Shown: positions 7,329 to 45,110 of the stretch, piece after piece
Position numbering within the stretch: position 1 is the stretch's first letter
Layout: each line of letters starts with the position of its first letter
From: an uncultured Alphaproteobacteria bacterium
GTDB lineage: Bacteria; Pseudomonadota; Alphaproteobacteria; HIMB59; GCA-002718135
DNA length: 64,000 nucleotides
Assembly (NCBI GenBank): GCA_902530685.1
Contig: CACAAZ010000002.1
Span: 2,103-66,102, forward strand
Direction of reading: 5' to 3'
Notes under the pieces: generated by a model
The model's input: the letters and a program-made list of their open reading frames with translations, nothing else
Databases searched by the model: none
Told to the model about the DNA's origin: nothing
Position numbers and translations under genes: made by a program

Positions 7329-8267
7329 ATGACTCAAATTAAACCTCTGTCTAGTATAGAAACTCCTCGCTTTGCTGATGTTGCTACTTTTTTTCGTTTA
7401 CCTGTTGTGAAAGATTTAAATAAATTAGACTACTGTATTGCAGGTGTACCATGGGATGGGGGAACTACTAATAGACCGGGAGCTAGACATGGGCCAAGAG
7501 AAATTAGAAATGCATCATCACTTGTAAGGCTTTATCACCCTGTTTCACTTAAGAGTCCTTATGATAAATTTAATATTGCAGATATTGGTGATTGTCCTGT
7601 AAACCCAGCAGACTTAAATGATAGTTTAGATAAAATAGAAAAATTTTATTCAAATATTTATAATTCTAAAACAATACCATTATCAATTGGAGGTGATCAT
7701 TTAATTAGCTTACCAATTTTAAGAGGTATTGCAAAAGAAAAACCAATAGGTTTATTTCAGTTTGATTCTCATTCTGATACTTGGGATACATATTTTGGAG
7801 GATTCAAATATACTCATGGCACACCTTTTAGGCGAGCAATTGAAGAAAATCTTATTGATCCTAAAAAATATGTAATACTTGGGTTAAGGGGTGCTTTATA
7901 CGATCCAAATGATTTAACATGGGCTAGAGAACAAGGTGTAACCATCATTACTATAGATGAATATTATGAGATGGGGTTTAGTAAATGTGTTGAAAAAATC
8001 TATACCGTTTTAGGTAACACAGATACTTATTTTACTTTTGATATAGATGGCATTGATCCTACTTTTGCACCAGGAACTGGTACTCCAGAAGTTGGTGGTT
8101 TTAATGTAAGAGAAGCTCAATTAATAATAAGAGCGTTAAATAAATTAAAATTTATTGGAGGTGACGTAGTTGAGGTTTCGCCACCTTTTGATACAAATAA
8201 CATGACATCACATGTTGCAGCAACGATAGCTTTTGAAATGCTCTGCACCATGACAAAAACAAACTAA
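7329..8267 (+). CDS. ureohydrolase (agmatinase/guanidino-acid hydrolase family)
   Basis: Arginase-family Mn motifs GGDHLISLPILR, FDSHSDTWD and FDIDGIDPTFAPGTGTPEVGG. Confidence 0.85.
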   Translation: MTQIKPLSSIETPRFADVATFFRLPVVKDLNKLDYCIAGVPWDGGTTNRPGARHGPREIRNASSLVRLYHPVSLKSPYDKFNIADIGDCPVNPADLNDSLDKIEKFYSNIYNSKTIPLSIGGDHLISLPILRGIAKEKPIGLFQFDSHSDTWDTYFGGFKYTHGTPFRRAIEENLIDPKKYVILGLRGALYDPNDLTWAREQGVTIITIDEYYEMGFSKCVEKIYTVLGNTDTYFTFDIDGIDPTFAPGTGTPEVGGFNVREAQLIIRALNKLKFIGGDVVEVSPPFDTNNMTSHVAATIAFEMLCTMTKTN

Positions 8268-8301
8268 AATTTATTAAGTAAAGAATTACTGATAATTTCA
8301 A

Positions 8302-8871
8302 TTATAGAAATGGAACTAAACCAATAAATTTTCTAAATCTATCTCTAATTAAGATGGGGTTGAGAGGAATTGGAATAGTTGAAGTATTTCCTGGCTTTAT
8401 CTTTGAAATAATTACGTAAGAATTACTTTGATCTTCAATAGCTCTTGATAATACATTTGCTGTTTCTTCACCAGAACATTCCAATACATTCTTACAACCG
8501 GCACCTATTGCCACATTTTTTAAAGAAGTGTTTTCATTAGTGAATGTTTTTTGGTCTCCTGTTGAACCATATGTTCCATTATCAACTATCAACAAAGTAT
8601 AGTTTGGGGGAGCTCTGTTCCCAATTGTGGCTAATGTGCTCATATTCATTAATATAGAACCATCACCGTCTATACTAATAACATTTTTTTTTTGTGATAA
8701 TGATAGGCCTAAACCAATAGAAGAGGACAGTCCCATACTACCTAACATATAAAAATAATTTGGTTGATCATTTATTTTATAAAGTTCCTGTGATGGTAGG
8801 CCAATGTTACAAATAACTAAGTTATCTTTAAGAATCTTATTTATATTATTAAATAAATCAAAACGATTCAT
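8302..8871 (-). CDS. comE: sulfopyruvate decarboxylase beta subunit-like (ThDP-binding half)
   Basis: 189 aa; ThDP-binding motif SIDGDGSILMNMSTLATIG...LLIVDNGTYGSTG; 4-nt overlap with the alpha-like gene. Confidence 0.7.
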   Translation of the reverse strand: MNRFDLFNNINKILKDNLVICNIGLPSQELYKINDQPNYFYMLGSMGLSSSIGLGLSLSQKKNVISIDGDGSILMNMSTLATIGNRAPPNYTLLIVDNGTYGSTGDQKTFTNENTSLKNVAIGAGCKNVLECSGEETANVLSRAIEDQSNSYVIISKIKPGNTSTIPIPLNPILIRDRFRKFIGLVPFL

Positions 8872-9368
8872 TTATCATCTTTCATTAAATTGAAATCACA
8901 TAAAATAGCTATTGGTGACTCAACAACTTTGGCATGTTTACTAAATGTGGAAATTTTTTCTAAATCTTTTTCTGATGAGCAATGTAAAATTGGAATTCTA
9001 AGTATTTTGAAGAGATCTTCTGTAATTCTGGCCATTCCCACTTGAGCTCCTACAGGCTCACCTGCTGTACCTCTATAACTAATAAGAAAAACAACTGGTA
9101 TTTGGTAAAATTGTAATAATGAAGTAATTGCATTAATTGAATTTCCAATGCCAGTATTCTGCATTAATATACAAGGAAATTTGTTTCCTAAATAGGCGCC
9201 AGCGCAGATCCCCATACCTTCTTCCTCACGTGGTACAGCAGAATAGTAAATATCTTTATCTTTTTCAAGAATATTAATCATGTTAGCTAATAACTTACAT
9301 GGAACACTTAAGTAAAAATCTACTCCACCTTTTTTTAAATTATCGATAATTTTTTTACTAATTTTCAT
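8868..9368 (-). CDS. comD: sulfopyruvate decarboxylase alpha subunit-like (PYR-domain half)
   Basis: 166 aa; ThDP-enzyme N-terminal (pyrimidine-binding) domain with REEEGMGICAGAYL and QNTGIGNSINA. The split 166+189 aa architecture matches ComD/ComE. Confidence 0.7.
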   Translation of the reverse strand: MKISKKIIDNLKKGGVDFYLSVPCKLLANMINILEKDKDIYYSAVPREEEGMGICAGAYLGNKFPCILMQNTGIGNSINAITSLLQFYQIPVVFLISYRGTAGEPVGAQVGMARITEDLFKILRIPILHCSSEKDLEKISTFSKHAKVVESPIAILCDFNLMKDDK

Positions 9369-9415
9369 TTTTTTTTGATGTCTATAGATATAAAATGATT
9401 AAACAATAACTTAAT

Positions 9416-10468
9416 TTATTTAAAATTATTTCTTAATTTTATCTTAGTGTTTGAAGTATATTCTTCACCTTTTTTTAATATAGTTGATGGAAAATTTGGT
9501 TGATTAATTGCATCGGGGAAGATTTGTGTCTCTAAACACATTCCAAATTGTAAACCATAATTTCTATCATATTTTCCATTGTATGACTCCTTCATCATGT
9601 TACCAGTATAAAATTGTATTCCAGGTTGATCAGTTGCGTATTCGACTCCCATGCCGGTAATTTTACTGTAAATGGAAGCTATAGATTTATCAATTGAGTG
9701 ATTTTTAAGAACATAATTATGATCAATCCCACCACTATCTAAAAAAATATTATTTATTTCAAACGAATTATTTAGATCATATTTTGTATTAACTACATCT
9801 AATAACTTGCCTGTAGGAATTGAGCCTTCATCAGTTTCACAAATTTGATTAGATGATATTTTGACAACATGTTCTGTAATATTTTTGTAATTATCTCTAT
9901 GACCATGAAAGTTCCAATAATTATGATTAGTCATATTTATAATAGTATCTTGATCTGTAGTAGCATGAAAAGAAATTAAAATTTCATTTTTATCATTTAG
10001 CTCGTAAATAGTTTTACAATCTAAGTTACCTGGATAATTCTCTTCTAAATGTTTAGAATAGTATGTGAGCTCTACTTTTATGCTTTTACTCGTTTTATTA
10101 ATATCAGCTATTTGCCAAATCTTTTTATTAAAACCCTCCTTTCCGCCATGAAGATGATCAGGCGCTGTATTAGGATATAAATTATAATCCTCTCCATCAA
10201 GACTAAATTTACTTTGTCCTATTCTATTACAAACTCTTCCAATAATAGAATTAAAATATCCATGAGCTTCCAGGCAATCATCTAAATTACCATAACCTAA
10301 TAATACGTCCTCTGTTTCAGAGTCATTAGAAGAAGTTGGGATACATACTTCACTTATATAACCACCATATGTATAAAAGCTAAAACTGTAATTATTTGAA
10401 TTAATAATATTGACTACATCAATATCTAAACCTTTATCATTTTGAAGTTTGTTAATTCTATATTCCAT
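9416..10468 (-). CDS. galM: aldose 1-epimerase (mutarotase) family protein
   Basis: IGRVCNRIGQSKFSLDGEDYNLYPN...HLHGGKEGFNKKIW and MTNHNYWNF are family-typical blocks. Confidence 0.8.
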   Translation of the reverse strand: MEYRINKLQNDKGLDIDVVNIINSNNYSFSFYTYGGYISEVCIPTSSNDSETEDVLLGYGNLDDCLEAHGYFNSIIGRVCNRIGQSKFSLDGEDYNLYPNTAPDHLHGGKEGFNKKIWQIADINKTSKSIKVELTYYSKHLEENYPGNLDCKTIYELNDKNEILISFHATTDQDTIINMTNHNYWNFHGHRDNYKNITEHVVKISSNQICETDEGSIPTGKLLDVVNTKYDLNNSFEINNIFLDSGGIDHNYVLKNHSIDKSIASIYSKITGMGVEYATDQPGIQFYTGNMMKESYNGKYDRNYGLQFGMCLETQIFPDAINQPNFPSTILKKGEEYTSNTKIKLRNNFK

Positions 10469-11367
10469 TATGTTTTTCTTAATCTTTGAAAATTATTTTT
10501 TCTTTGTTGAAGATAAATGATTAATCCACCTAAAACTATGAAAAAAGTACCTGGAAAAAGTTGGTCAACTGGCCATTCTGCAAAAAATATCCAACCTAAA
10601 ATAAGTGCAAAAAATATTTCAATATAATCAAATGGCATAATTTTACTAAGTTCTGCTTTTCTAGCACCGTAGATTAATAATAAAGTTCCAGATCCTCCTG
10701 CAATTCCCATAACACAAACTATAAAGAAATCTTTTATACTTTTAAAATTTTCCCACATACCGAAAAACATTACTAACATACATGCAACTATGATTGTCCC
10801 TGTTTGACCGTATAAGTTAATAAGAGGTGAAGGAACATGATCCTCAAAACTTAAAGATGTTACCCTTGCTAATGAATATCCAAAAGCAGCAAGGATAGGA
10901 AGTAATAACATATAATTAAAGTCTGATGACCAAGGCTGCATAATTAAAACGATACCCACAAATCCAGAAATTACAGCACTCATTTTGTACCAACCAAATT
11001 TTTCACCTAATATAGGAATGGCAAGAAGAGTAACCATCATAGGTCCTGTGTATTCCATGGTAGCAACTAAAGCAAAAGGGAAGTAAGCATAAGAAGTGTA
11101 GAGACACAATTGAGCTAAGGCTACAAAAACTCCACGAAATAATCCTAACTTCCATTGCGTTATATTTATTTGTCTACCATTTCGGTGCCAATCTTGTGAA
11201 AAATATAAAGCAATGACACATGGGATCATCCCAAATAAATTTCGAAAAACAGAAAGTTGAGCAGCTGGGTAATCGTTTCGCAAAAACTTTATCGCTATGC
11301 CCATACAATCTAATAAGAACAAACCTGAAAGTGATAGGATAACAGCTAAAAATAAATTACTTTTCAT
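10468..11367 (-). CDS. DMT-superfamily (EamA-like) permease
   Basis: ~10 predicted TM helices, two-repeat EamA-like organisation; 1-nt overlap with galM. Confidence 0.75.
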   Translation of the reverse strand: MKSNLFLAVILSLSGLFLLDCMGIAIKFLRNDYPAAQLSVFRNLFGMIPCVIALYFSQDWHRNGRQINITQWKLGLFRGVFVALAQLCLYTSYAYFPFALVATMEYTGPMMVTLLAIPILGEKFGWYKMSAVISGFVGIVLIMQPWSSDFNYMLLLPILAAFGYSLARVTSLSFEDHVPSPLINLYGQTGTIIVACMLVMFFGMWENFKSIKDFFIVCVMGIAGGSGTLLLIYGARKAELSKIMPFDYIEIFFALILGWIFFAEWPVDQLFPGTFFIVLGGLIIYLQQRKNNFQRLRKT

Positions 11368-11398
11368 AAAATGTTATTTGTTTTTAAAAGATACTTTT

Positions 11399-12385
11399 TT
11401 ATAAAACACAACACTGGTCTACCCAGTGACCTGGTTCAACTTCAGTAAGGCCCATTGTTATCTCGCCACCTTTGCAATCTACACCAGGATGAGGACATCT
11501 TGTTCTAAATACACAACCTGGAGGTGGATTTAATGCACTAGGTATTTCTCCTTTTAGTTCAATAGCTTCAGATCTTTTCTCTGGATCAATTGAAGGAATA
11601 GAAGATAATAATGCTTTAGTATAGGAGTGTTTAGGGTTCTTAAATAATTCTCTTGAGGGGCCCATTTCAACTATATGCCCTAAATACATAACTGCAACAA
11701 CATCACATACATGCGCAACAACACTTAAATCATGACTAATAAATAAGTAAGTAAGGTTAAGTTCAGTTTGAAGTTGTTTTAAAAGATTTAATATATCTGC
11801 TTGTATTGATACATCTAAAGCAGCAACACTTTCATCTGCTACAATAAATTTTGGATTACTTACTAAGGCTCTTGCAATTGATATTCTTTGTCTTTGTCCT
11901 CCAGAAAATGCATGAGGGAATCTTCGTAAATGCTCAATATTTAGTCTACATTTAGCTGCGATATCTCTTACTCTTTCATCAGTCTCTTGTCTTGAGTTTG
12001 TTATTTTCATTACTTCTAAAGGTTCTGCAATAATATCCCTAACAGTCATTCTTGGGCTTAAAGCAGCATAAGGATCTTGAAAAATTAGTTGAGCTTTTTT
12101 TCTATATTCTTTTAAATCTTGTTTGTTCATATTAGTTAAATCATAATCTCTTTCATCATCATGAAAAATAACATTTCCTGAACTAATTTTATTAGCCCCA
12201 AGTATTGCTCTACCAAGAGTAGTTTTTCCTGAACCAGACTCACCCACTAAACCAAAAAAGGATCCTTTTTTAATTTTGATATTGATATTATTTACAGCAT
12301 GTATTTTTTGTTTTTTTGAAATAAAATTTTCTTGATAATCAAAATTTACTGAAACATTATTTACTGAAATTAAATTATCACTCAT
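11399..12385 (-). CDS. Opp/Dpp-type ABC transporter ATP-binding protein (F-like)
   Basis: Walker A GESGSGKTT, signature FSGGQRQR, Walker B IVADESVAALD, Cys-rich Opp-type C-terminal tail. Start moved to MSDNLISVNN (ATG 12383..12385), giving an 8-nt overlap. Confidence 0.9.
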   Translation of the reverse strand: MSDNLISVNNVSVNFDYQENFISKKQKIHAVNNINIKIKKGSFFGLVGESGSGKTTLGRAILGANKISSGNVIFHDDERDYDLTNMNKQDLKEYRKKAQLIFQDPYAALSPRMTVRDIIAEPLEVMKITNSRQETDERVRDIAAKCRLNIEHLRRFPHAFSGGQRQRISIARALVSNPKFIVADESVAALDVSIQADILNLLKQLQTELNLTYLFISHDLSVVAHVCDVVAVMYLGHIVEMGPSRELFKNPKHSYTKALLSSIPSIDPEKRSEAIELKGEIPSALNPPPGCVFRTRCPHPGVDCKGGEITMGLTEVEPGHWVDQCCVL

Positions 12386-13370
12386 TTTGACCACACTTAA
12401 TTCCGCATTGATCAACCCAGTGACCTTGTTCAACTTCAACTAATTTCATTTCTATTTTACCATCTTTTCCTTCTGGATTATGATGAGGGCATCGAGTTCT
12501 AAATACACAGCCTGTTGGTCTATCTAATGGACTTGGAATATTTCCAGGTATTGGGGATAACGGTGCGTCTAAATTATTTACATCAGGAAGTGCTTCTAAT
12601 AATCCCTTTGTATAAGGATGCTTTGGGTTTTTTAGAATTTTATTTACCGGTCCTTTTTCAACTACACTCCCAAGGTACATAACTGCAACATCATCTGCAA
12701 TTTGAGCTATTACGCCTAAGTCATGAGTAATAAAAATAACACCCATTTGATACTCTTGAATAATATCTTTTATTAAATTAATAACTTGAGCCTGAATAGT
12801 TACATCTAAAGCTGTTGTGGGTTCATCAGCTAATAATAATTTTGGCATTGTAGACAAAGCCATAGCTATCATTGCTCTTTGACGCATTCCTCCAGATAAT
12901 TCAAAAGCATACTGATTAAATCTTTTTTCTGCATCAGCTATTCCTACTCTATTGAGCATATTTATTGATAAAGATTTTGCCTCTTTTTTATTCATATTTT
13001 TTTTGTGAATTAATAATTGCTCGACCATTTGAGCTCCAATTTTTATAGCTGGAGCGAAGCTTGCCATAGGCTCTTGAAAAATCATTGAAACTTTGCCACC
13101 TCTTATTTTTTTTAGATCTTCTTTAGATGTAAATTTTAATACGTTTTCATTATCTAAAATTATCTCTGCATTGTTATTATAAAAAGTATTTCCAGGATTT
13201 AGTTGCATTATTGATTTTGCAGTTACAGATTTGCCTGATCCTGATTCTCCAACAATACCAAGTACCTTCCCTTGGTCAAGGGAAAGAGAAATGTTTTCTA
13301 CTGCTATAATTCTACCTTCATCAGTATCAAATTTTACATCTAAGTTTTTAACTTCTAATAAATGGCTCAT
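12378..13370 (-). CDS. Opp/Dpp-type ABC transporter ATP-binding protein (D-like)
   Basis: Walker A GESGSGKSV, signature LSGGMRQR, Walker B LLADEPTTALD, Cys-rich C-terminal tail. Confidence 0.9.
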   Translation of the reverse strand: MSHLLEVKNLDVKFDTDEGRIIAVENISLSLDQGKVLGIVGESGSGKSVTAKSIMQLNPGNTFYNNNAEIILDNENVLKFTSKEDLKKIRGGKVSMIFQEPMASFAPAIKIGAQMVEQLLIHKKNMNKKEAKSLSINMLNRVGIADAEKRFNQYAFELSGGMRQRAMIAMALSTMPKLLLADEPTTALDVTIQAQVINLIKDIIQEYQMGVIFITHDLGVIAQIADDVAVMYLGSVVEKGPVNKILKNPKHPYTKGLLEALPDVNNLDAPLSPIPGNIPSPLDRPTGCVFRTRCPHHNPEGKDGKIEMKLVEVEQGHWVDQCGIKCGQNE

Positions 13371-14534
13371 TTAATTTTTGACCTTATGAGGATCAGCCGC
13401 ATCTCGGAGACCATCTCCAACGTAAACAAATGATAAGATAAGAACAACTAAAAATACTACAGGTATAAAATACCACTGATAATTTAATAAAACGTCAGCT
13501 TTTGTAGCATTTTGTAATAATACACCAAGGGAATTTACTGGTTCTCGTAAACCCAATCCAATAAAACTTAAAGCAGTTTCCGAAAGAAGCATGTAAGGAA
13601 AACTGATAACTAAATCTACAATTATATAGCTTGTAAAACTTGGTAGCAAATGCCTTATAATTATATGAGTTGAAGAAGCTCCACACATTTGTGCAGCCAA
13701 AATATATTCTTGACTTCTCTCACTTAGTAAATGAGTTCTTACTCTTCTTGCTAATGTTGGCCATCCAATAAAACCTAATAGAGAAGCTATAAAAAAAAAT
13801 CTTATTTCTGAACTCCAAGTATCTGGCGCAAAAGCAGCTAGTACCATAAATAATGGAATTGGAGGAATAGTTCTTACTGCATCTGTAAACATTTGAAGCA
13901 GGCTATCTATCCAACCTCCATAATACCCTGCAATCCCTCCTATAATTAAAGATAATACAAATGAAATAAAAACACCTAAAGTTCCAACAGCAAGAGAAAT
14001 ATAGATTGCATTTAAAGTTCTGCTGAACAGATCTTTGCCAGCTTTGTCTGTTCCAAATAAATGTATACCACCTTCATCAACACCAAATAAATGAGTATTA
14101 AAAGTAAAACCTGGAATTTTAAAATCAAGAGCTTCTCCTGGTAAGTTTATATTAAAATTAAAAACTTTATACTCCCAACCTTCTACAAAAAATTGTACGT
14201 AACGTCTTTTCTCTTTGTCTTCTTTATAAACCCATCTAAAATTTGTATCTGCTCCTCTGTATTTTGTCATTCCATAAAGAAAGGGTCTTGGAGAAAAACC
14301 ATTTTCGTCCCAAAACATAGGAACCTGAGGGGCACCGTTTTCATAATCTTTGTCTCTTCCAGCTATTGTTGGATCATACGGTGACAAGAATTCAGAAAAA
14401 AGACTGGTAACTATCATAAAGATTAAAATTGAACCCGCAATCATTGCAGTTCTATTTCCAAAGAATCTATTTCTTACTAACTGCATTTGAGTTGCAGTGA
14501 AATATGCTTCCTTCTTTTTTAAATCAACCTCCAC
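13371..14534 (-). CDS. Opp/Dpp-type ABC transporter permease (C-like)
   Basis: Multi-TM protein; conserved loop ILAAQMCGASSTHIIIRHLLPS. Confidence 0.85.
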   Translation of the reverse strand: MEVDLKKKEAYFTATQMQLVRNRFFGNRTAMIAGSILIFMIVTSLFSEFLSPYDPTIAGRDKDYENGAPQVPMFWDENGFSPRPFLYGMTKYRGADTNFRWVYKEDKEKRRYVQFFVEGWEYKVFNFNINLPGEALDFKIPGFTFNTHLFGVDEGGIHLFGTDKAGKDLFSRTLNAIYISLAVGTLGVFISFVLSLIIGGIAGYYGGWIDSLLQMFTDAVRTIPPIPLFMVLAAFAPDTWSSEIRFFFIASLLGFIGWPTLARRVRTHLLSERSQEYILAAQMCGASSTHIIIRHLLPSFTSYIIVDLVISFPYMLLSETALSFIGLGLREPVNSLGVLLQNATKADVLLNYQWYFIPVVFLVVLILSFVYVGDGLRDAADPHKVKN

Positions 14535-15537: not shown

Positions 15538-15555
15538 TCTTAAATATTTTTAATT

Positions 15556-15592
15556 AAAAAAAATAAAAGCGGCAATAAGAATTGCCGCTTTT
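15556..15592 (-). terminator. intra-operon rho-independent terminator/attenuator after the binding-protein gene
   Basis: On the minus strand GCGGCAAT-tctt-ATTGCCGC (15569..15588), followed by TTTTATTTTTTTT. Confidence 0.7.
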
Positions 15593-15612
15593 AATAAGAT
15601 AATTATCCTTGA

Positions 15613-35342: not shown

Positions 35343-35353
35343 TTAATTAATAT

Positions 35354-36325: not shown

Positions 36326-36340
36326 ATTGTTATGATCTTT

Positions 36341-36359: not shown

Positions 36360-36360
36360 T

Positions 36361-36378
36361 TATTCAAAATAATGAATA
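36361..36378. promoter_or_regulatory. candidate operator TATTCA-N6-TGAATA (copy 4)
   Basis: Perfect palindrome between the bicupin gene (ATG 36325, -) and 36417 (+). Confidence 0.5.
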
Positions 36379-36416
36379 AATCAATTATTATTTAACAATA
36401 GTGTTATTAAATTATT

Positions 36417-37516: not shown

Positions 37517-38839
37517 ATGGCAATAGAATATTTAAAAAAAGGATTAGATGAAAAACAAAGAATTGAAGATAATGATAAAGTAAAAAAAATTGTTGAGGAA
37601 ACATTAAGTAAAATTGAGTCAGAAGGCGATAAACATATTAGAGAGTTATCTCAAAAATTTGATAACTATTCTCCAGATAGTTTTCGATTAAGTGAAGATC
37701 AAATTAATCAATTAATGAGTGAAGTCTCTGATGATGACAAAGAAGATATAAAATTTGCTCAAAAACAAGTGCGATCATTTGCTGAAGCACAACTCAAAAC
37801 TTTAAGTGAATTAGAAGTAGAAACGCATCCAGGTGTGATTCTTGGTCATAAAAATATACCAGTACAAGCAGTTGGATGTTATGTCCCTGCAGGAAAATTC
37901 CCAATGGTAGCTTCTGCCCATATGTCAGTTGTTACTGCCTCTGTTGCTGGTGTACCAAGAATAGTAGCCACTACTCCACCTTTTAAAGGTAAACCAAATC
38001 CAGCAGTTGTTACAGCAATGAAAATGGGAGGTGCTCACGAAATTTATGTCTTAGGAGGAATGCAAGGAGTTGGTGCGATGGCTATTGGTACAGAAACAAT
38101 TAAACCTGTAGATATGCTTGTTGGACCCGGCAATGCATTTGTTGCTGAAGCAAAAAGACAATTGTATGGCAAAGTTGGTATCGATTTATTTGCTGGTCCA
38201 ACTGAAACAATGGTTATTGCAGATGAAACTGTTGATGGTGAAATATGTGCAACAGACTTATTAGGACAAGCAGAACATGGATATAATTCTCCTGCAGTAA
38301 TGATAACAAACTCAAGAAAACTTGCAGAAGAAACATTTAAAGAAATTGATAGAATTTTACAAATTTTACCTACTAAAGAAACAGCAAGTACTAGCTGGAG
38401 AGATTATGGAGAAATGATTTTATGTGATACTTATGAGGAGATGTTGTCTAAAGCAAATGATATAGCCTCAGAGCACGTTCAAGTTATGACAAAAAAAGAT
38501 GATTGGTTTTTAGAAAATATGACATCTTATGGAGCTCTATTTTTGGGTGCTAGAACTAATGTTGCTAATGGTGATAAAGTCATAGGTACTAACCATACTC
38601 TTCCTACTAAAAAAGCTGGAAGATATACTGGTGGTTTGTGGGTCGGTAAGTTCATTAAAACCCACACTTATCAAAAGATTACAACCGATGAAGCAGCTAC
38701 ACTTATTGGAGAATATGGATCAAGACTTTCACACCTTGAGGGATTTATTGGTCACGCTGAACAATGTAATGTTAGAGTGAGAAGATATGGTGGACTTAAT
38801 ATTGAGTATGGGAAACCAGCATCAAAAATAAAAAATTAA
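37517..38839 (+). CDS. histidinol-dehydrogenase-family NAD-dependent dehydrogenase (HisD paralogue; HpsN-like candidate)
   Basis: HisD hallmark blocks [32 protein letters not shown] and EGFIGHAE; located outside any his-operon context. Confidence 0.8.
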
Positions 38840-40710
38840 ATTTTATTATATTGTTTTAAATAAAGGATGACCTCATCTGCTAATTCTTCTGCAGATTTTA
38901 TTTTTGTTTCCAAAACAATTTCAGGTGATGACGGTATTTCATAATTTGAGTCAATCCCAGTAAAATTTTTTAATTTGCCAGATCTAGCTTTTTTATACAA
39001 ACCTTTTGGATCTCTTTTTTCACACTCCTCTATTGAGGTATCAACATATATTTCTATAAATTCATCACTCTCTAGTAATTCACGAGCCATTTTTCTTTCA
39101 GAATTAAAAGGTGAAATAAAAGAAACAATTGTTATTAGTCCAGCATCAACCATTAATCTAGATACTTCTGAAATTCTCCTTATATTTTCAACACGATCTA
39201 CATCTGTAAATCCTAAATCTTTGTTTAATCCATGTCTCACATTGTCACCGTCTAATAAGTAAGTATGTTTTCCTAGTTTATGTAACTTTTGCTCAATTAT
39301 ATTAGCTATAGTAGATTTTCCTGACCCTGATAATCCTGTAAACCATAAAACACATGGCTTTTGCCCGTTAATAGAGGATCGTAAGTTTTTATTTATTGAC
39401 ATTTGATGCCATGAAATATTTGATGCTCTTCTTAGTTCATGCTCAATAACACCTGCTCCTACAGTTTGATTATTGAATTGGTCAATTATTACAAAACTTC
39501 CTAATTTTTTATTATTTTTATAGGGATTAAAAATTGTATTTTTATTTAATGCAACTTTGGCATATCCAATTTCATTCAAGTTTAAAAATTTTGAAGCAAT
39601 TTTTTCGAATGAATTTATATTTATTTTATGAACTAAATCTGTGATCTTTCCTATTGTTTGAAAGTTTATAAATTTAAAGATATAATTTCTTTCAGGTATC
39701 ATATGTTCTTTATTCATCCAAATTATATGGGATGCAAATTGATCAGATAAAAAATAATTATGATTTTTAACAGAGCATAATAATTCACCTCTAGAAATAT
39801 CAACTGCTCTATCTAATGTTAGTGTTACCGCTTGCTCTTTAACGGCAAAGTCACTCTCTCCTTTTGGAGTTAATATTTTAATAATTTTAACTTTCTCTTT
39901 ACTTGAAAGGACATGAACCTCATCATTAACTTTTATTTTTCCTGAAGTGATTGTACCGCTATATCCTCTAAAATCAGAGCTTGATCTATTAACAAATTGA
40001 ATCGGTAATGAAAAAATTTCTTCTTCTAAAGATTCATTTAGACTAATTTCTTCAAGTTCATCTATTAAAGATTTTTCATTGTACCAGTTTATGTTTGAAT
40101 TTTTTTGAAATACATTATCACCAACTAATGCAGATATTGGAATAAACTTTTGTAAATTAAATTTAAATTCACTAGAAAATTTTTTAAAAGAAGAAATAAT
40201 ATCTTTAAATTTTTTTTGATCATAATTAATTAAATCCATTTTATTTACCGCAACTATAATATTTTCAATTCCAAGAAGAGATAAAATAAATGTGTGTCTT
40301 TTAGTTTGGTCAAGAATACCTTTAGTTGCATCAACTAATATAATTCCAACATCTGAGTTCGATGCTCCTGTAACCATATTGCGAGTGTATTCCTCATGGC
40401 CAGGAGTATCAGCAATAATAAATTTACATTTTTCAGTCTCAAAATAACGATAAGCAACATCTATAGTTATTCCCTGCTCTCTTTCAGCTTGTAAACCATC
40501 AATTAATAATGCTAAATCAATTTGCTTACCTTGTGTTCCATACTTTTCACTTTCAATCTTAATTTGAGTTAGCTGATCACTATAAATATTTTTTGAATCA
40601 AATAATAGTCTGCCAATAAGTGTTGATTTACCATCATCTACGGAACCACAAGTTAAAATTTTTAATTGTTTTTTATTATTTTGATTTTGAAAAAAAGTTT
40701 CTATATCCAT
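38836..40710 (-). CDS. cysNC: bifunctional sulfate adenylyltransferase subunit 1 / adenylylsulfate kinase
   Basis: GTPase motifs [17 protein letters not shown] and NKMD; C-terminal APS-kinase P-loop [11 protein letters not shown]. Confidence 0.9.
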
Positions 40711-41609
40711 TAAAAATAACCTTCTTGTTTTTTTTTCTCCATAGATCCAATTTGATCATTATCAATTAATCTTCCTTGTCTTTCTGAATATTTTGACTCT
40801 AGTAATTCAATAATGATTTCTTCAACATTAGTTGCATCAGACTCCACAGCGGCAGTTAATGGATAACAGCCCAATGTTCTAAATCTTACTTTTTTTTGTT
40901 CTATTTTTTCATTTTCCCTAATTTTTAAACGATCATCATCAACCATAATCATCATATCATTTCGTCTAATAACTGATCTTATTTTGGAAAAATATAACGG
41001 GACAAGTGGAATATTTTCCTGATAAATGTATTGCCAAATATCTATTTCAGTCCAATTAGATAATGGAAAAACTCTAACACTTTCATCTTTATCTATATTA
41101 GTATTGAACAAATTCCAAAGCTCTGGTTTTTGATTTTTTGGATCCCAACGATGTTTTTTGTCTCTGAATGAAAAAATTCTTTCTTTTGCTCGTGATTTTT
41201 CTTCGTCCCTTCTCGCACCTCCAAATGCAGCATCAAATTTATATTTATCTAATGCTTGAATTAATGACTGTGTTTTCATTATATCTGTATGAATTTTTGA
41301 GCCACTAGAAATAGGATTTATATTATTTCGCACCCCTTCTTTGTTAATATGAACCAATAAGTCTAAATTATACTTCTTAACAGTCACATCTCTAAAGTTT
41401 ATCATTTCTTTAAATTTCCAAGTTGTGTCTATGTGCATTAATTTAAATGGAATTTTATTTGGATAAAAAGCTTTTTGAGCTAAATGGAGCATTACTGATG
41501 AATCTTTTCCAATCGAATAAAGCATTACAGGATTTTCAAATTCAGCTACTACTTCTCTGATTATATGAATGCTTTCAGATTCTAGTTTTTCAATATGTGA
41601 TAATTTCAT
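40710..41609 (-). CDS. cysD: sulfate adenylyltransferase subunit 2
   Basis: [35 protein letters not shown] and [10 protein letters not shown]. Start placed at MKLSH (ATG 41607..41609); the longer ORF reaches 41636. Confidence 0.9.
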
Positions 41610-41610
41610 G

Positions 41611-42414
41611 CTAATCTGCTTTTGATAAATTTCCATAAGCTATAAAATCAGGATTTAAAATATCTTCTTTAGTATTGTATAAAATATCTTTGTTATCAAT
41701 TGTTTTCAATTTTCCTCCTGCTTCTTCTAAAATAATATGACCAGCAGCTATATCCCATTCGGAAGTTGGTCCCAATCTTGGATAAATATCAGCCTCACCC
41801 TCAGCAAGGATGCAAAACTTAAGAGAACTACCGATTGTGATTAGTTCAAAATTCGTAAATTTTTTTTCTACCCAATTCTGAAAATCTTTACTCGAATGTG
41901 ATCGACTACCAATAACCCTAGTAGTTATATTTTTCTCTTTTTTTATATTTATTTTATTAAAATCTTTTAAAGTACTTAAATTTGAATTAGTTTTTAATTT
42001 ATAACATCCATTATTTTTAAGTGCATAGTATAAAATAGATTTTGCAGGAGAATAAATTATTCCAAAAATTGGATAATTATTTTCAATCAATGAAATATTG
42101 ACCGTAAACTCTCCATTTCTATTTATAAATTCTTTTGTTCCATCTAGAGGATCTATAAGCCAATATGTATTCCAATCTTTTCTATTTTCCCAACTAACTA
42201 AACTTTCTTCACTCAAAATTGGGATGTTTGGCTCGAGTCTTTTTAATCTGTTAACTATTAAATTATTTGAATTTATATCAGCTTGTGTAATTGGTGATTT
42301 GTCTTTTTTAGAATTAACAATAATTTCATTATCATAGATCTTAAGTATTTCTCTTCCTGAATCTATTGCAATGTTTAAGAGTTCTAAAATTCGTTTTTCA
42401 TGGTTAAGTTTCAT
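41611..42414 (-). CDS. cysQ: 3'(2'),5'-bisphosphate nucleotidase
   Basis: Inositol-monophosphatase-fold motifs [13 protein letters not shown] and [16 protein letters not shown]; sits in the cysD/cysNC context. Confidence 0.8.
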
Positions 42415-42421: not shown

Positions 42422-43333
42422 TTAAATAAAGATAAAATATATATAACAAGCGTATAATATTAGACCTATACTTCCATAAATTCTTCCTATTTTTTTTACA
42501 AAGAACATAAAGCCTAAGGTTATAAAGGTAATTAAAAGCATGAAAAGTAAGTCTTGTGTGGCTATTATTTGTGGCATTGAAAATGGTCCAAAAAAAGAAC
42601 TGATACCTAATACACCAAGTACATTGTAAATATTTGAACCTAAAATATTACCAAGAGCAAAATCAACTTTTCTCTTTATAGCTGACATTATACCTACTAC
42701 TAATTCTGGTAGTGACGTTCCAAAGGCGATTATTGATAATCCAATTACAGCTTCTGAAACATTGAAATAATTTGCAATGCTAATAGCTGAGTTTACAAAT
42801 AATTCAGATCCATATATTAAAAATATAATTCCAATTAAAATTAAGAATATAGATAAAATCGTTGAATATTCACTTTTTTTTATTTCTTCTAAATCTAATG
42901 AGCCTTTTTTAAATTGTAGATACATAATTAAAATTAGCAAAATCATTGAAACAATTCCAAATAAGTAATTAAAATATAAAAAACTCATTAGAATTAAAGC
43001 GACTCCAAGACCTATGTTTATCCAAGCTTGATTAATTTGATTTTTAGTCACGTTAGATATTGGTAAAATAACAGCGGTAGCTGCCATAACTAATATTAAA
43101 TTTGCAATATTACTTCCAACTACCGCTCCAATTGCTAGATCTGCATGATTATTAATAACAGCATTAATGCTACTAGCTAATTCAGGTAATGAAGTGCCGC
43201 CAGCAACAATAACAACACCAATTGCAAATAATGAAATATTTAATTTTTTTCCAAAACTAACTGAGCCTTTTATAACTATTTCTGCACCAGCAACTAAAAG
43301 CAACAAACCTATAATTAGATATAAAAGATCCAC
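42422..43333 (-). CDS. CaCA-family cation/Ca2+ exchanger (YrbG-like)
   Basis: Two alpha-repeat motifs, GTSLPELASS and GTSLPELVVG, in a ~10-TM protein. Confidence 0.8.
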   Translation of the reverse strand: MDLLYLIIGLLLLVAGAEIVIKGSVSFGKKLNISLFAIGVVIVAGGTSLPELASSINAVINNHADLAIGAVVGSNIANLILVMAATAVILPISNVTKNQINQAWINIGLGVALILMSFLYFNYLFGIVSMILLILIMYLQFKKGSLDLEEIKKSEYSTILSIFLILIGIIFLIYGSELFVNSAISIANYFNVSEAVIGLSIIAFGTSLPELVVGIMSAIKRKVDFALGNILGSNIYNVLGVLGISSFFGPFSMPQIIATQDLLFMLLITFITLGFMFFVKKIGRIYGSIGLILYACYIYFIFI

Positions 43334-43340
43334 TAATAAA

Positions 43341-45110
43341 TTACTGAATAACTGTGTCTTTAGGATCTATGCCAGCAACCTCAACAGGAGCTTTCATAGC
43401 ATCTCTTCTAAATGGTTCTCCAAGCTCTTGATTAAGCATTACTTCTATAAAAGTTGTAGTGCCTTCCATTTGCTCTTTGCATGAAAGCTTTAAAGCTTCA
43501 GTTAATTCTTCCTGTGTGTTAACTTTAATTCCTTTAAATCCACAAGCATCAGCAATTTTTGCATAGCTAAGTTTAGGATCAAGTTCAGTACCAACAAAAT
43601 TATTATTGTACCAAAGAGTTGTATTTCTTTTTTCTGCACCCCATTGATAATTTCTAAAAATAATCATTGTTATATTTGGCCACCCTTCTCTATTGCATGA
43701 TGTCATTTCACTCATACTAATTCCGAAAGCACCATCTCCAGCAAAACCAACTACTGGAGTGTCCGGACAGCCTATTTTAGCGCCAATTACCGATGGAAAT
43801 CCATAGCCACACGGGCCAAACAAACCAGGAGCTAAATATTTTCTTCCATTTTCAAAAGTTGGATAAGCATTCCCAATTGCACAATTGTTTCCTATGTCAC
43901 TAGAAATTATTGCATCTTCTGGTAATCCTGCTTGAATTGCTCTCCACGCCATTCTTGGAGACATCTTTTCGGGATCTCTATCTCTTGAATCTTTATTCCA
44001 GGAAGTTCCTGGATCATCATCTTCGTGATCAAGTCCGGTTAAGGTCTGTAACCAAGATGATTTAGTTTGATGAATTAAATCTTCTCTCTCTTTTCTATGA
44101 TCATTTCCTGCATCAGTAGAGAGATTTTCTAATATTTGCTTTGCTACTAATTTTGCATCACCACAAATACCAACACTAATTTTTTTTGTAAGTCCAATTC
44201 GATCAGAGTTAATATCTACTTGAATTACTTGTGCATTTTTTGGCCAATAATCGATTCCATAACTAGGAAGAGTTGAAAAGGGATTAAGTCTGGTTCCAAG
44301 AGCAAGAACTACGTCAGCTTTAGAAATAATTTCCATTGCAGCTTTTGAACCATTGTAGCCTAAAGGGCCAACTGCAAGACGATGCTTACCTGCGAAACTA
44401 TCATTGTGTTGATAGCCACATGCAACAGGAGCACTTAATTTTTCCGCAAGATTTTTACAATCTTCAATTGCATCTGCCAAAATAACTCCAGCTCCAGATA
44501 AAATAACTGGAAATTTTGCTTTAGATAATAAATCAGCTGCTTTTTTTATTGCCTCTGATCCTCCAGAAGGTCTTTCAAATTTGATTATTGGTGGGATCTC
44601 GATTTCAACAACTTGAGTCCAAAAATCTCTTGGAATATTTATTTGAGCAGGAGCTGATCCCTTAATTGCTTTAGAGATAACTCTATTTAAGACTTCAGCT
44701 ACTCTTGATGGATCTCTAACTTCTTCTTGATAGCAGACCATATCTTTAAATAAATTCATTTGTTCTACTTCTTGAAATCCACCTTGACCAATAGTTTTAT
44801 TTGCTGCCTGTGGTGTCACAAGTAGCATTGGTGTATGGTTCCAATAAGCTGTTTTGATTGGAGTAACTAAACCAGTAATACCAGGACCGTTTTGAGCAAT
44901 ACACATTGCAATTTTGCCTGTTGATCTAGTATAACCATCAGCCATAATTCCACCATTGGACTCATGAGCCACATCCCAAAATTTAATTCCAGCTTTAGGA
45001 AATAAATCAGAGATTGGCATAAAAGCTGATCCTATAATACCAAAGGCATGTTGTACTCCATGTTTTTGAAGAACTTTTACAAAAGCCTCTTCAGTTGTCA
45101 TTTTAGGCAT
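43341..45110 (-). CDS. xsc: sulfoacetaldehyde acetyltransferase
   Basis: 589-aa ThDP enzyme. MPKMTTEEAFVKVLQKHGVQHAFGIIGSAFMPISDLFPKAGI and QNGPGITGLVTPIKTAYWNHTPMLLVTPQAANKTIGQGGFQEVEQ match Xsc as I remember it. ThDP motif GDGAFGISMSE. Confidence 0.85.
   Translation of the reverse strand: MPKMTTEEAFVKVLQKHGVQHAFGIIGSAFMPISDLFPKAGIKFWDVAHESNGGIMADGYTRSTGKIAMCIAQNGPGITGLVTPIKTAYWNHTPMLLVTPQAANKTIGQGGFQEVEQMNLFKDMVCYQEEVRDPSRVAEVLNRVISKAIKGSAPAQINIPRDFWTQVVEIEIPPIIKFERPSGGSEAIKKAADLLSKAKFPVILSGAGVILADAIEDCKNLAEKLSAPVACGYQHNDSFAGKHRLAVGPLGYNGSKAAMEIISKADVVLALGTRLNPFSTLPSYGIDYWPKNAQVIQVDINSDRIGLTKKISVGICGDAKLVAKQILENLSTDAGNDHRKEREDLIHQTKSSWLQTLTGLDHEDDDPGTSWNKDSRDRDPEKMSPRMAWRAIQAGLPEDAIISSDIGNNCAIGNAYPTFENGRKYLAPGLFGPCGYGFPSVIGAKIGCPDTPVVGFAGDGAFGISMSEMTSCNREGWPNITMIIFRNYQWGAEKRNTTLWYNNNFVGTELDPKLSYAKIADACGFKGIKVNTQEELTEALKLSCKEQMEGTTTFIEVMLNQELGEPFRRDAMKAPVEVAGIDPKDTVIQ

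What the first reader, a model, noticed from the sequence alone, without database searches (positions are those of the whole stretch)
7329..45110. Window-scale pattern: an organosulfur catabolic network dispersed over ~38 kb rather than in one operon, with identifiable missing steps
Seen, as family calls: ComDE-like sulfopyruvate decarboxylase (8302..9368) and a cytoplasmic sulfatase (17802..19328). An omega-aminotransferase plus alanine dehydrogenase (20382..22837), which is the classical Tpa+Ald pairing of taurine degraders. Pta (22956..23858), a HisD/HpsN-like dehydrogenase (37517..38839), Xsc (43341..45110) and cysQ/D/NC. Established: taurine -> sulfoacetaldehyde (Tpa, with Ald regenerating pyruvate) -> acetyl-P + sulfite (Xsc) -> acetyl-CoA (Pta). 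DHPS -> sulfolactate (HpsN) -> sulfopyruvate -> sulfoacetaldehyde (ComDE) feeds into the same trunk. Several steps are absent from the window: a sulfolactate dehydrogenase (SlcD/ComC type), tauABC or TRAP-type sulfonate importers, a TauE-type sulfite exporter and a sulfite dehydrogenase. Inference: the two ABC importers, the two DMT permeases, the SDR or the uncharacterised cluster may supply the missing functions.
Basis: partly seen in the sequence, partly recalled or inferred. Interest (0 to 1): 0.6.

Follow-up and report, generated by a model that had tools for sequence, protein, structure and literature searches.

The report
Modular organosulfonate gene block, HIMB59 bacterium
An abundant small-genome ocean bacterium (HIMB59/AEGEAN-169 group) keeps a known taurine-to-acetyl-CoA pathway and several add-on modules in one conserved 38-kb block, but the proposed DHPS branch is not supported and this genome holds only a shortened sulfosugar module.

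Summary
All family calls and coordinates check out. The genome is HIMB59/AEGEAN-169, not SAR11 proper.

**Supported:** the C2 trunk. Xsc, a short Pta and an omega-aminotransferase plus Ald are conserved family-wide. In true Pelagibacteraceae the 71-72% identical aminotransferase-Ald pair sits divergently beside tauABC. No acetate kinase was found in 22 genus genomes.

**Not supported as written:** the DHPS branch.
- The HisD paralogue is not HisD; the real one lies beside hisG on another contig. It also lacks the HpsN sulfonate-binding motif (K-F-P-M instead of R-Y-A/S-H).
- It falls outside the canonical HpsN clade and belongs to a separate LacI regulon.
- ComDE ends a saccharide-type ABC importer/mutarotase operon. 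In 16 of 21 sister genomes a D-2-hydroxyacid dehydrogenase lies just downstream, with a sugar kinase between in the genomes mapped; some also carry an SftI-like isomerase. This suggests a sulfoquinovose-type route. This genome has a short form without them.
- cysQ/D/NC looks anabolic: PAPS for a sulfotransferase, with no sulfite reductase found.

**Missing steps:** two TauE-family genes occur elsewhere. No tauABC, sulfolactate dehydrogenase or sulfite dehydrogenase was found in the 1.05 Mb assembled.

This scan has already reported the ComDE/sulfoquinovose cluster and an Xsc neighbourhood in other HIMB59-type genomes. Enzymes are known kinds; the arrangement is a variant. Interest is moderate.

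The parts
43341..45110 (-). xsc, sulfoacetaldehyde acetyltransferase. It is the desulfonating trunk enzyme.
   Evidence: NF005713 1021 bits (cut-off 620) and TIGR03457 951 bits (cut-off 676). Over the cut-off in 84 of 101 family genomes and 11 of 11 high-quality ones.
42422..43333 (-). CaCA-family (Na/Ca-exchanger type) permease, 7 nt downstream of xsc. Candidate sulfite or ion transporter; function not shown.
   Evidence: TIGR00367 199 bits. A CaCA gene lies next to xsc, or to xsc plus a GMC gene, in all mapped genomes, including other genera.
38836..42414 (-). cysQ (41611-42414), cysD (40710-41636) and cysNC (38836-40710). They make and recycle PAPS and are probably anabolic.
   Evidence: Equivalog scores are above cut-off. 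cysD is in 13 of 22 genus genomes. No NIR_SIR sulfite reductase in 0 of 22. A Sulfotransfer_3 gene lies at G000:C7:30420-30983; 9 of 13 CysD-positive genomes have one against 2 of 9 CysD-negative.
37517..38839 (+). HisD-family paralogue, sister to HpsN, with K-F-P-M in place of the R-Y-A/S-H sulfonate motif. It is the last gene of the Sno5 operon.
   Evidence: Best solved relative is HpsN 8v35 at 402.7 bits, against 258 for HisD. Motif read from the alignment against PMC11382572. All 120 close orthologues carry KFPM. Tree. The true hisD lies beside hisG on C9.
24748..37514 (.). LacI regulon: SDR, HAD, two sugar-type ABC permeases, an SBP_bac_1 binding protein, LacI, five SnoaL-domain genes, a MetE-like gene and a bicupin. 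The substrate is unknown.
   Evidence: The perfect palindrome TATTCA-N6-TGAATA occurs only at 29512, 32159 and 36361, all in divergent promoter regions of this cluster. The core cluster plus the HisD paralogue also occurs in another genus, unlinked to xsc.
22956..24740 (+). Short-type pta (22956-23858) plus an EamA/DMT permease (23883-24740), divergent from the aminotransferase.
   Evidence: PRK08190 306 bits against 282. An EamA-pta pair facing aminotransferase-ald is found in all mapped family genomes. AckA is in 0 of 22.
20382..22837 (-). Omega-amino acid:pyruvate aminotransferase (21497-22837; Tpa-type by context, AptA/beta-alanine type by sequence) plus alanine dehydrogenase (20382-21497).
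   Evidence: It is 97-100% identical across most of the genus (85-92% in its most divergent members) and 81-89% in other genera. The 71-72% identical Pelagibacteraceae orthologues sit divergent to tauA/tauB/tauC.
17802..20385 (+). Cytoplasmic PehA-like sulfatase (17802-19328) and a core-MetE-like protein (19285-20385).
   Evidence: no signal peptide; CGPSR motif. The MetE-like gene is conserved next to ald across genera. The sulfatase is variable: absent in G021 and replaced in G094.
8302..17712 (-). One co-directional unit: 699-aa family-5 binding protein, oppBCDF-type ABC genes, a DMT permease, aldose-1-epimerase, comD and comE.
   Evidence: The binding protein's closest solved relatives are an uncharacterised 'putative oligopeptide' binder (5ipw), then SPH1118 and further saccharide binders. 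There is a strong hairpin terminator-like site after the binding-protein gene at 15564-15593. ComE is in 77 of 89 genus genomes and 1 of 11 outside.

Best explanation
The 38-kb stretch is a genus-conserved block of four separable modules in a HIMB59/AEGEAN-169 bacterium. They are anchored between uvrC-xsc and agmatinase.

**Module A: the C2 trunk (shown by family scores and synteny; chemistry inferred).**
- The omega-aminotransferase transfers the amino group of taurine to pyruvate, giving sulfoacetaldehyde. It probably also accepts hypotaurine and beta-alanine.
- Ald regenerates pyruvate and releases ammonium.
- Xsc splits sulfoacetaldehyde into acetyl phosphate and sulfite.
- The short Pta makes acetyl-CoA.
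- The EamA permease after pta and the CaCA permease after xsc are the best candidates for the missing taurine and sulfite transport (inferred).

**Module B: ComDE.**
- ComDE closes a saccharide-type ABC importer/DMT/mutarotase operon.
- In 16 of 21 sister genomes a D-2-hydroxyacid dehydrogenase lies about 1.4-1.9 kb downstream of comE. In the four genomes mapped around it, a PfkB kinase lies between.
- In three of the mapped genomes the operon faces an SftI-like isomerase and a Gfo-type enzyme.
- This suggests a route: sulfosugar -> sulfolactate -> sulfopyruvate -> sulfoacetaldehyde -> Xsc.
- This genome has a short form without those genes, as do two relatives. The source of sulfopyruvate here is therefore open.

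**Module C: a LacI regulon.** It comprises a sugar-type ABC importer, HAD, SDR, SnoaL proteins, a bicupin and a MetE-like protein. It ends in an HpsN-sister dehydrogenase whose substrate is unknown.

**Module D: cysQ-cysD-cysNC.** It makes PAPS for sulfation and is not catabolic.

**Fate of sulfite.** It is most likely exported. Two TauE-family genes and a YeiH gene lie elsewhere, and no sulfite-oxidising enzyme was found.
For: **Family scores:**

**Taxon:** (GORG single-cell genomes, MarineAlpha5 bins, a HIMB59-labelled MAG).

**Conservation**
- Xsc is over the cut-off in 84 of 101 family genomes.
- ComE is in 77 of 89 genus genomes.
- Block synteny.
- The core EamA-pta facing aminotransferase-ald, and xsc-CaCA, also occur in other genera.

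**Module A**
- tauABC is divergent to the orthologous aminotransferase-ald pair in Pelagibacteraceae, with pta nearby.
- SAR11_0807 TauA binds taurine (PMC11485210). In HTCC1062, tauA is locus 0807 and ald is 0809 (PMC3870248).
- AckA was found in 0 of 22 genus genomes.

**Module B**
- The binding protein's solved relatives include saccharide binders.
- Kinase, 2-hydroxyacid dehydrogenase and SftI-like genes in G033.
- The dehydrogenase lies within 1.4-1.9 kb downstream of comE in 16 of 21 relatives and 6 of 6 high-quality ones.
- These genes are absent from this genome. The short form recurs in G026 and G030.

**Module C**
- The palindrome is restricted to this cluster.
- The HisD paralogue follows Sno5 in every genome mapped that carries the cluster, including G007 where it is unlinked to xsc.

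**Module D:**

**Elsewhere in the genome**
- Two TauE-family genes plus YeiH.
- No TauA, AprA or Sat.
- No SorA or SoeA. The only Oxidored_molyb hit is MsrP, and the molybdopterin enzymes are Fdh and BisC types.
Against: - No substrate was assayed.
- By sequence the aminotransferase is a beta-alanine:pyruvate/AptA-type enzyme. MmsA is present, so a beta-alanine route is possible.
- In two other HIMB59-family genera a PotD-type polyamine importer and agmatinase lie just beyond ald-metE, which hints at polyamine or beta-alanine use.
- No taurine importer was identified in this genome or family: TIGR01729 in 0 of 101, and NMT1 only in 9 of 22 and unlinked.
- The ComE score is just under the curated cut-off.
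- In the short form ComDE has no identified supplier of sulfopyruvate.
- The assembly is incomplete (56% by marker genes, 1.05 Mb), so absences are provisional.
- The SftI-like match is weak (289 bits against a cut-off of 700) and has no solved relative.
Confidence: 0.65

Rival explanations
1. The HisD paralogue is a working DHPS-3-dehydrogenase. Its sulfolactate is oxidised by an unidentified dehydrogenase to sulfopyruvate, and ComDE feeds this into Xsc. The window is then one DHPS-plus-taurine network.
For: - The paralogue's closest solved relative is HpsN: 402.7 bits, and about 47% identical to an HpsN-type representative.
- The catalytic Glu-His, the Asp and the sulfonate-contacting Lys ('GDK') are kept.
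- In 12 genus genomes a member of the canonical HpsN clade (520 bits to CpHpsN) takes its place in the same cluster.
- JGI annotation calls the orthologues sulfopropanediol 3-dehydrogenase.
- Purified SAR11 HpsO/HpsP/HpsN homologues act on DHPS with the same chiral specificity (PMC11131964). Whether the assayed SAR11 HpsN is an orthologue of this gene was not checked.
Against: - The HpsN-defining motif G-R-Y-A/S-H, including the sulfonate-binding His126, reads G-K-F-P-M in the window protein and in all 120 close orthologues.
- The protein lies outside the canonical HpsN clade, which has support 0.98; its own clade has 0.945.
- No hpsO, hpsP or DHPS TRAP genes are nearby.
- It belongs to a LacI regulon with SnoaL, bicupin and MetE-like genes, which also occurs away from xsc.
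- The paralogue and ComE are lost independently. G018 and G019 have ComE only; G021 and G023 have the paralogue only.
- The only Ldh_2 protein in the genome is DpkA-like: 237 bits, against 131 to sulfolactate dehydrogenase.
- The SAR11 HpsN homologue tested had a Km of about 106 mM for DHPS.
Confidence: 0.2
2. The aminotransferase-Ald pair serves beta-alanine or polyamine catabolism, not taurine. Its closeness to pta and xsc is then a historical accident of a compact genome.
For: - The NCBIfam equivalog is AptA. The best solved relatives are beta-alanine:pyruvate transaminases.
- MmsA is present.
- Agmatinase bounds the block. In other HIMB59-family genera a PotD-type importer lies two genes from ald.
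Against: - The EamA-pta pair facing aminotransferase-ald is invariant across genera.
- Pelagibacteraceae orthologues are paired with tauABC.
- Pta has no other evident source of acetyl phosphate, since AckA is in 0 of 22. Phosphoketolase was not tested.
- Beta-alanine and taurine have the same shape, so the sequence family does not exclude taurine.
Confidence: 0.12
3. ComDE is a phosphonopyruvate decarboxylase or some other 2-oxo-acid decarboxylase unrelated to sulfonates.
For: ComE is 3 bits below the curated cut-off. In the short form no supplier of sulfopyruvate was found.
Against: - The phosphonopyruvate decarboxylase model scores far lower: 99 and 131 bits against a cut-off of 312.
- None of the neighbouring genes is a PEP mutase.
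- The split two-subunit form is the ComDE form.
- Linkage to xsc is conserved within the genus.
- A 2-hydroxyacid dehydrogenase follows comE in most relatives.
Confidence: 0.03

Closest known systems
Taurine dissimilation via Tpa-Ald-Xsc-Pta (Ruegeria pomeroyi tauABC-tpa / xsc-pta; also inferred for SAR11)
   Same: The same four enzyme families are present, and the aminotransferase is paired with alanine dehydrogenase. Orthologues in Pelagibacteraceae sit beside tauABC (PMC4334477; 10.1101/2024.12.10.627767).
   Different: - No tauABC, tauR or TRAP importer was found. An EamA permease sits at the divergent position that tauABC occupies in Pelagibacteraceae.
- xsc is about 20 kb from pta and is followed by a CaCA permease.
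- No SoeABC or other sulfite dehydrogenase was found.
- By sequence the aminotransferase is AptA/beta-alanine type.
Sulfolactate degradation through sulfopyruvate decarboxylase and Xsc (Roseovarius nubinhibens SlcD-ComDE-Xsc-Pta)
   Same: A split ComDE is linked to Xsc and Pta. In sister genomes a 2-hydroxyacid dehydrogenase lies just downstream of comE.
   Different: - There is no SlcD or ComC-type dehydrogenase and no SlcHFG transporter.
- ComDE sits in a saccharide-type ABC importer/mutarotase operon.
- This genome lacks the dehydrogenase altogether.
Sulfoglycolysis clusters (sulfo-EMP of E. coli YihRSTV; sulfo-SFT SftI of Bacillus aryabhattai, PMC7491151; NAD-dependent sulfoquinovosidase SqgA, PMC10755693)
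   Same: Sister genomes combine a mutarotase, an SftI-like isomerase, a PfkB kinase and a Gfo/IDH-fold enzyme around comDE. Earlier reports of this scan read the same cluster in other HIMB59 genomes as sulfoquinovose breakdown.
   Different: - This window keeps only the importer, DMT, mutarotase and ComDE.
- No aldolase or transaldolase was seen.
- The SftI-like score is far below the cut-off.
- The Gfo-type gene was not tested against SqgA.
DHPS-3-dehydrogenase HpsN (Cupriavidus pinatubonensis 8v35; R. pomeroyi 8wwe)
   Same: It has the same fold family, full-length alignment, and keeps the catalytic Glu-His, the Asp and the Lys of 'GDK'.
   Different: - The sulfonate-recognition motif R-Y-A/S-H is replaced by K-F-P-M.
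- It forms a separate clade.
- Its gene context is SnoaL/bicupin/MetE-like/LacI, not hpsOP.

Membership tests
Sulfoacetaldehyde acetyltransferase Xsc | Score above the curated equivalog cut-off over the full length | tested here: met
   TIGR03457 950.8 bits against 676.4, and NF005713 1021 against 620.
Sulfopyruvate decarboxylase ComDE | Split alpha and beta subunits that score above the TIGR03845 and TIGR03846 cut-offs and above the phosphonopyruvate decarboxylase model | tested here: inconclusive
   Alpha subunit: 165.2 against 147.95, met. Beta subunit: 218.6 against 221.5, 3 bits short. The phosphonopyruvate decarboxylase model scores 99 and 131 against 312. Two adjacent ORFs overlap by 4 nt.
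Sulfopyruvate decarboxylase ComDE | A supplier of sulfopyruvate (sulfolactate dehydrogenase or cysteate aminotransferase) in the same genome | tested here: not met
   No orthologue of the comE-linked 2-hydroxyacid dehydrogenase was found. The only Ldh_2 protein is DpkA-like. A cysteate aminotransferase was not tested. The assembly is incomplete.
DHPS-3-dehydrogenase HpsN | HpsN-specific motif G-R-Y-A/S-H with the sulfonate- and zinc-binding His126 (PMC11382572) | tested here: not met
   It reads G-K-F-P-M in the window protein and in 120 of 120 close orthologues.
DHPS-3-dehydrogenase HpsN | Catalytic Glu318-His319, Asp352 and the sulfonate-contacting Lys353 | tested here: met
   'SEH' and 'GDK' are conserved in the alignments.
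DHPS-3-dehydrogenase HpsN | Placement inside the clade of characterised HpsN enzymes | tested here: not met
   FastTree LG+gamma on 78 sequences. The canonical clade has support 0.98 and excludes it. The window clade has support 0.945.
Histidinol dehydrogenase HisD | It is the genome's histidine-pathway copy (his-operon context, GDY and G-S-A-P-L type motifs) | tested here: not met
   A second copy at C9:37210-38493 follows hisG and carries GDY. The window copy scores 258 bits to HisD structures against 403 to HpsN.
Taurine:pyruvate aminotransferase Tpa | A class III pyruvate-dependent aminotransferase paired with Ald and genomically tied to taurine uptake or to Xsc/Pta | tested here: met
   It overlaps ald by 1 nt and is divergent to pta. 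Orthologues are divergent to tauABC in Pelagibacteraceae.
Taurine:pyruvate aminotransferase Tpa | Demonstrated preference for taurine over beta-alanine | not testable with these tools
   Sequence places it in the AptA/beta-alanine:pyruvate group. Enzyme kinetics are needed.
Phosphate acetyltransferase Pta | PTA_PTB family membership above a curated cut-off, and a source of acetyl phosphate | tested here: met
   PRK08190 306 bits against 282. The classical pta equivalog TIGR00651 gives only 68 against 311, so this is the short Pta/Ptb type. Xsc is present and AckA is in 0 of 22.
Formylglycine sulfatase | C/S-x-P-x-R maturation motif and a maturation enzyme in the genome | tested here: inconclusive
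   C51-G-P-S-R is present and there is no signal peptide. FGE and anSME were not searched for. The PehA equivalog scores 411 against 900.

The most novel reading that the evidence does not exclude
In the HIMB59/AEGEAN-169 lineage the xsc neighbourhood is a plug-in platform for organosulfur modules. Two of its parts would be new biochemistry.

1. An HpsN-sister dehydrogenase works with SnoaL-fold, bicupin and MetE-like enzymes on a not-yet-recognised algal sulfonate or related polyol.
2. EamA and CaCA permeases replace TauABC and TauE as the taurine and sulfite transporters.
Probability: 0.22. Interest if true: 0.65.

Novelty: new variant of a known kind. Interest (0 to 1): 0.4.

Why it matters
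HIMB59/AEGEAN-169 cells are abundant in oligotrophic surface oceans. The three genome papers on the clade that I could read never mention taurine or sulfonates.

Three practical points follow.

- **A new consumer.** A family-wide Xsc trunk, with genus-specific add-on modules, would add a consumer to marine sulfonate budgets.
- **Over-counted hpsN.** Genes counted as hpsN in metagenomes and metatranscriptomes include a very abundant type that lacks the sulfonate-binding motif. Clusters of close orthologues hold 858, 477 and 470 member sequences. DHPS-oxidation potential may therefore be over-counted.
- **Strain-level differences.** ComDE/sulfosugar capacity differs between close relatives, as shown by the long and short forms. 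This matters for resolving niches at the strain level.

Tried and rejected
**Candidates examined and rejected**
- *Ldh_2 gene on C18 as the missing sulfolactate dehydrogenase.* Rejected. It is closer to DpkA (237 bits) than to ComC 2x06 (131) and sits among sugar genes.
- *GD_AH hit on C4 as SuyAB.* Rejected. It is a fused 499-aa galactarate-dehydratase-like protein next to a xylose-dehydrogenase-like SDR.
- *Oxidored_molyb hit as SorA.* Rejected. It is MsrP with MsrQ.
- *Molybdopterin enzymes as SoeA.* Rejected. They are Fdh-alpha and BisC/TorA types.
- *PotD-like binding protein next to ald-metE in genus g2 as TauA.* Rejected by its solved relatives.

**Checks that gave negative or uninformative results**
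- The LacI palindrome was sought at the aminotransferase/pta, binding-protein/sulfatase and xsc/uvrC promoters. It was not found.
- Promoter and terminator scans were no better than shuffled sequence, apart from one hairpin after the binding-protein gene.
- The mutarotase matches generic galactose mutarotases only.
- The SftI-like protein has no solved relative.

**Steps that could not be run**
- A search with 'TIGR00069.1' failed on accession format.

Full report
**1. Observation**

| Gene | Coordinates | Score |
|---|---|---|
| ComD | 8868-9368 | TIGR03845, 165 bits vs cut-off 148 |
| ComE | 8302-8871 | TIGR03846, 218.6 vs 221.5 |
| PehA-like sulfatase | 17802-19328 | 411 bits |
| Ald | 20382-21497 | 483 vs 392 |
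| Omega-aminotransferase | 21497-22837 | AptA model, 585 vs 500 |
| Short Pta/Ptb-type transferase | 22956-23858 | PRK08190, 306 vs 282 |
| HisD-family protein | 37517-38839 | TIGR00069, 431 bits |
| CysNC, CysD, CysQ, CaCA permease | 38836-43333 | above cut-offs |
| Xsc | 43341-45110 | 1021 bits |

For ComD and ComE the phosphonopyruvate decarboxylase model reaches only 99-131 bits against a cut-off of 312. The sulfatase has no signal peptide and carries a C-G-P-S-R formylglycine motif.

The rest of the window holds no TRAP system, TauE or sulfite dehydrogenase.

**2. Whose genome this is**

- The assembly has 1.05 Mb in 45 contigs and is 56% complete by marker genes.
- Named relatives are GORG single-cell genomes, 'MarineAlpha5' bins and a 'HIMB59' MAG. 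True Pelagibacteraceae have only 71-73% identical orthologues of the aminotransferase.
- The genome therefore belongs to the HIMB59/AEGEAN-169 lineage, formerly SAR11 subclade V.
- Three genome papers on that lineage never mention taurine, sulfonates or sulfoacetaldehyde.

**3. The block is conserved and modular**

- Xsc is over the cut-off in 84 of 101 sampled family genomes and in all 11 high-quality ones.
- ComE is nearly genus-specific: 77 of 89 in the genus and 1 of 11 outside.
- In more than 40 genomes xsc and comE lie on one contig, 18-58 kb apart.
- Mapping the window's proteins onto sister genomes shows the same order from uvrC-xsc to comE-agmatinase, with insertions and deletions.

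Two units are conserved across the family's other genera:
- xsc, usually followed by an IseJ-like GMC oxidoreductase, then a CaCA permease;
- an EamA permease and pta, facing aminotransferase-ald, followed by a core-MetE-like gene.

This genome lacks the GMC gene; xsc and CaCA are 7 nt apart.

**4. The C2 trunk is supported**

- In Pelagibacteraceae single-cell genomes the orthologous aminotransferase-ald pair is divergent to a TauA/SsuA-family binding protein, a TauB-like ATPase (270 bits) and a TauC-like permease. In two of them pta lies a few genes further on.
- SAR11_0807 TauA has been shown to bind taurine (PMC11485210).
- In HTCC1062, tauA is locus 0807 and ald is 0809 (PMC3870248).
- No acetate kinase was found in 22 genus genomes. 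Acetyl phosphate from Xsc is therefore the obvious substrate for Pta. Phosphoketolase was not tested.

Two caveats apply:
- By sequence the aminotransferase is an AptA/beta-alanine:pyruvate type, and MmsA is present. Beta-alanine is probably a second substrate.
- No taurine importer was found. TIGR01729 matched 0 of 101 genomes. NMT1-family binding proteins occur in 9 of 22 and are unlinked.

The EamA gene sits at the divergent position that tauABC occupies in Pelagibacteraceae. This makes it a transport candidate by inference only.

**5. The DHPS branch is not supported as drawn**

The HisD paralogue is not HisD. A second copy follows hisG on contig C9. The paralogue's best solved relative is HpsN at 403 bits, against 258 for HisD.

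It does not meet the HpsN definition:
- HpsN is defined by the motif G-R-Y-A/S-H, whose His126 binds the sulfonate (PMC11382572).
- The window protein reads G-K-F-P-M, as do all 120 close metagenomic orthologues.
- In a tree of 78 family representatives the canonical HpsN clade (support 0.98) excludes it. It groups with K-Y-P-M sequences (support 0.945).

Its regulation and distribution also separate it from ComDE:
- The gene starts 2 nt after a SnoaL gene.
- The perfect palindrome TATTCA-N6-TGAATA occurs only in the three divergent promoters of the LacI/ABC/SnoaL cluster.
- The cluster with its dehydrogenase also exists in another genus away from xsc.
- The paralogue and ComE are lost independently. 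G018 and G019 keep ComE only. G021 and G023 keep the paralogue only; in G021 this was verified within a contig.

One fact keeps the door open. In 12 genus genomes a member of the canonical HpsN clade (520 bits to CpHpsN, motif G-R-Y-N-N) replaces the paralogue in the same cluster. A sulfonated alcohol therefore remains a possible substrate.

**6. What ComDE is attached to**

- ComDE ends a co-directional unit of a 699-aa family-5 binding protein, oppBCDF-type genes, a DMT permease and an aldose-1-epimerase.
- The binding protein's solved relatives include saccharide binders: SPH1118, an alpha-galactoside binder and a chitin-oligosaccharide binder. Its top hit is an uncharacterised 'putative oligopeptide' binder.
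- In 16 of 21 genus genomes of at least 85% completeness, and in 6 of 6 high-quality ones, a D-2-hydroxyacid dehydrogenase lies 1.4-1.9 kb downstream of comE.
- In the four genomes I mapped around it (G033, G035, G031, G027), a PfkB kinase lies between comE and the dehydrogenase.
- In G033, G035 and G027 the operon faces a Gfo-type enzyme, an SftI-like isomerase (289 bits, cut-off 700) and a further sugar ABC system.

However, none of these genes is present in this genome. Here comE is followed after 34 bp by the end of the agmatinase gene. G026 and G030 have a similar short form. G027 carries a broken dehydrogenase. G021 has other sugar-acid genes instead of comDE.

After I had reached this reading, a look-up showed that earlier reports of this scan read the long form in other HIMB59 genomes as a sulfoquinovose breakdown cluster. 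I checked only parts of that claim.

**7. cysQ/D/NC and the fate of sulfite**

- No NIR_SIR sulfite reductase was found in 22 genus genomes.
- cysD is accessory, present in 13 of 22.
- A Sulfotransfer_3 gene lies on C7. Such genes occur in 9 of 13 CysD-positive genomes against 2 of 9 CysD-negative ones. The genomes are related, so this is only suggestive.
- PAPS for sulfation is therefore the likeliest role.
- AprBA sits in this same slot in G022, and an AprA/AprB-sized gene pair lies there in G007. A TRAP system and a DddP-like gene also appear beside xsc in G022.

In this genome I found two TauE-family genes, one beside a YeiH gene. I found no SorA, SoeA, AprA or Sat. Export of sulfite is the most economical reading.

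**8. Verdict**

- The taurine trunk is well supported by comparative evidence.
- The DHPS-to-ComDE link is not supported.
- The ComDE module is a truncated member of a sulfosugar-type cluster.
- The cys genes are probably anabolic.

The enzymes are known kinds. The arrangement and the lineage are new variants.

Noticed in passing
window:42422-43333 and L032, L035, L037: A CaCA (Na/Ca-exchanger family) permease lies next to xsc, or to xsc plus a GMC gene, in all mapped HIMB59-family genomes, including distant genera at 34-40% identity. I know of no described role for this family in sulfonate clusters.
   Followed up: partly
L021:8997-10610; L037:8958-13753: Most relatives carry an IseJ-like GMC oxidoreductase (577 bits to the choline-dehydrogenase subfamily) convergent with xsc. 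G022 and G031 add a TRAP dctPQM set after it. This is a likely isethionate route. The GMC gene is cleanly absent from this window and from G094.
   Followed up: partly
L037:15099-16397; L037:19431-L038:1760: In G022 the slot between CaCA and the HisD paralogue holds a DddP-like DMSP lyase homologue (359 bits, cut-off 600) and aprBA. In G007 an AprA/AprB-sized gene pair lies beside cysQ; I did not run it against the Apr models. The xsc flank is a variable organosulfur slot.
   Followed up: partly
G000:C12:10010-12085 (L011): A TauE-family gene (174 bits) lies directly beside a YeiH-family 'putative sulfate exporter' gene. This is a possible sulfite/sulfate export pair far from the window.
   Followed up: no
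A tree of 78 HisD-family representatives: A large group of HisD paralogues with G-R-Y/F-P-L motifs is neither HisD-like (G-x-A-x-Y/L with GDY) nor HpsN-like. It seems to be uncharacterised.
   Followed up: no
L133:2175-3100 (G027): In G027 the comE-linked 2-hydroxyacid dehydrogenase appears split into 163-aa and 129-aa ORFs. This may be a pseudogene on the way to the short form seen in this window. I did not confirm that the two fragments are homologous to the dehydrogenase.
   Followed up: no
window:15564-15593 (- strand): A 13-bp-stem hairpin with a T-run lies right after the 699-aa binding-protein gene and before oppB. This is the usual attenuator that gives excess binding-protein transcript.
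   Followed up: no
window:19285-20385 and L048, L049, L050: A core-MetE-like gene (Meth_synt_2, 366 aa) is convergent with ald in every HIMB59-family genome mapped, whatever lies beyond it. A second, more distant MetE-like gene sits in the SnoaL cluster.
   Followed up: no
L110:3085-4113: In some Pelagibacteraceae an Ldh_2 protein lies between tauC and pta. It scores 252 bits to L-sulfolactate dehydrogenase and 233 to ureidoglycolate dehydrogenase. It is a candidate sulfolactate dehydrogenase wired into the SAR11 taurine locus.
   Followed up: no
window:47896-48312; G000:C8:25862-27388; G000:C4:45962-48247: MoaE lies beside the block. Elsewhere the genome encodes MsrPQ and a BisC/TorA-type S/N-oxide reductase, so molybdenum cofactor is used, but not by a recognisable sulfite dehydrogenase.
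   Followed up: partly
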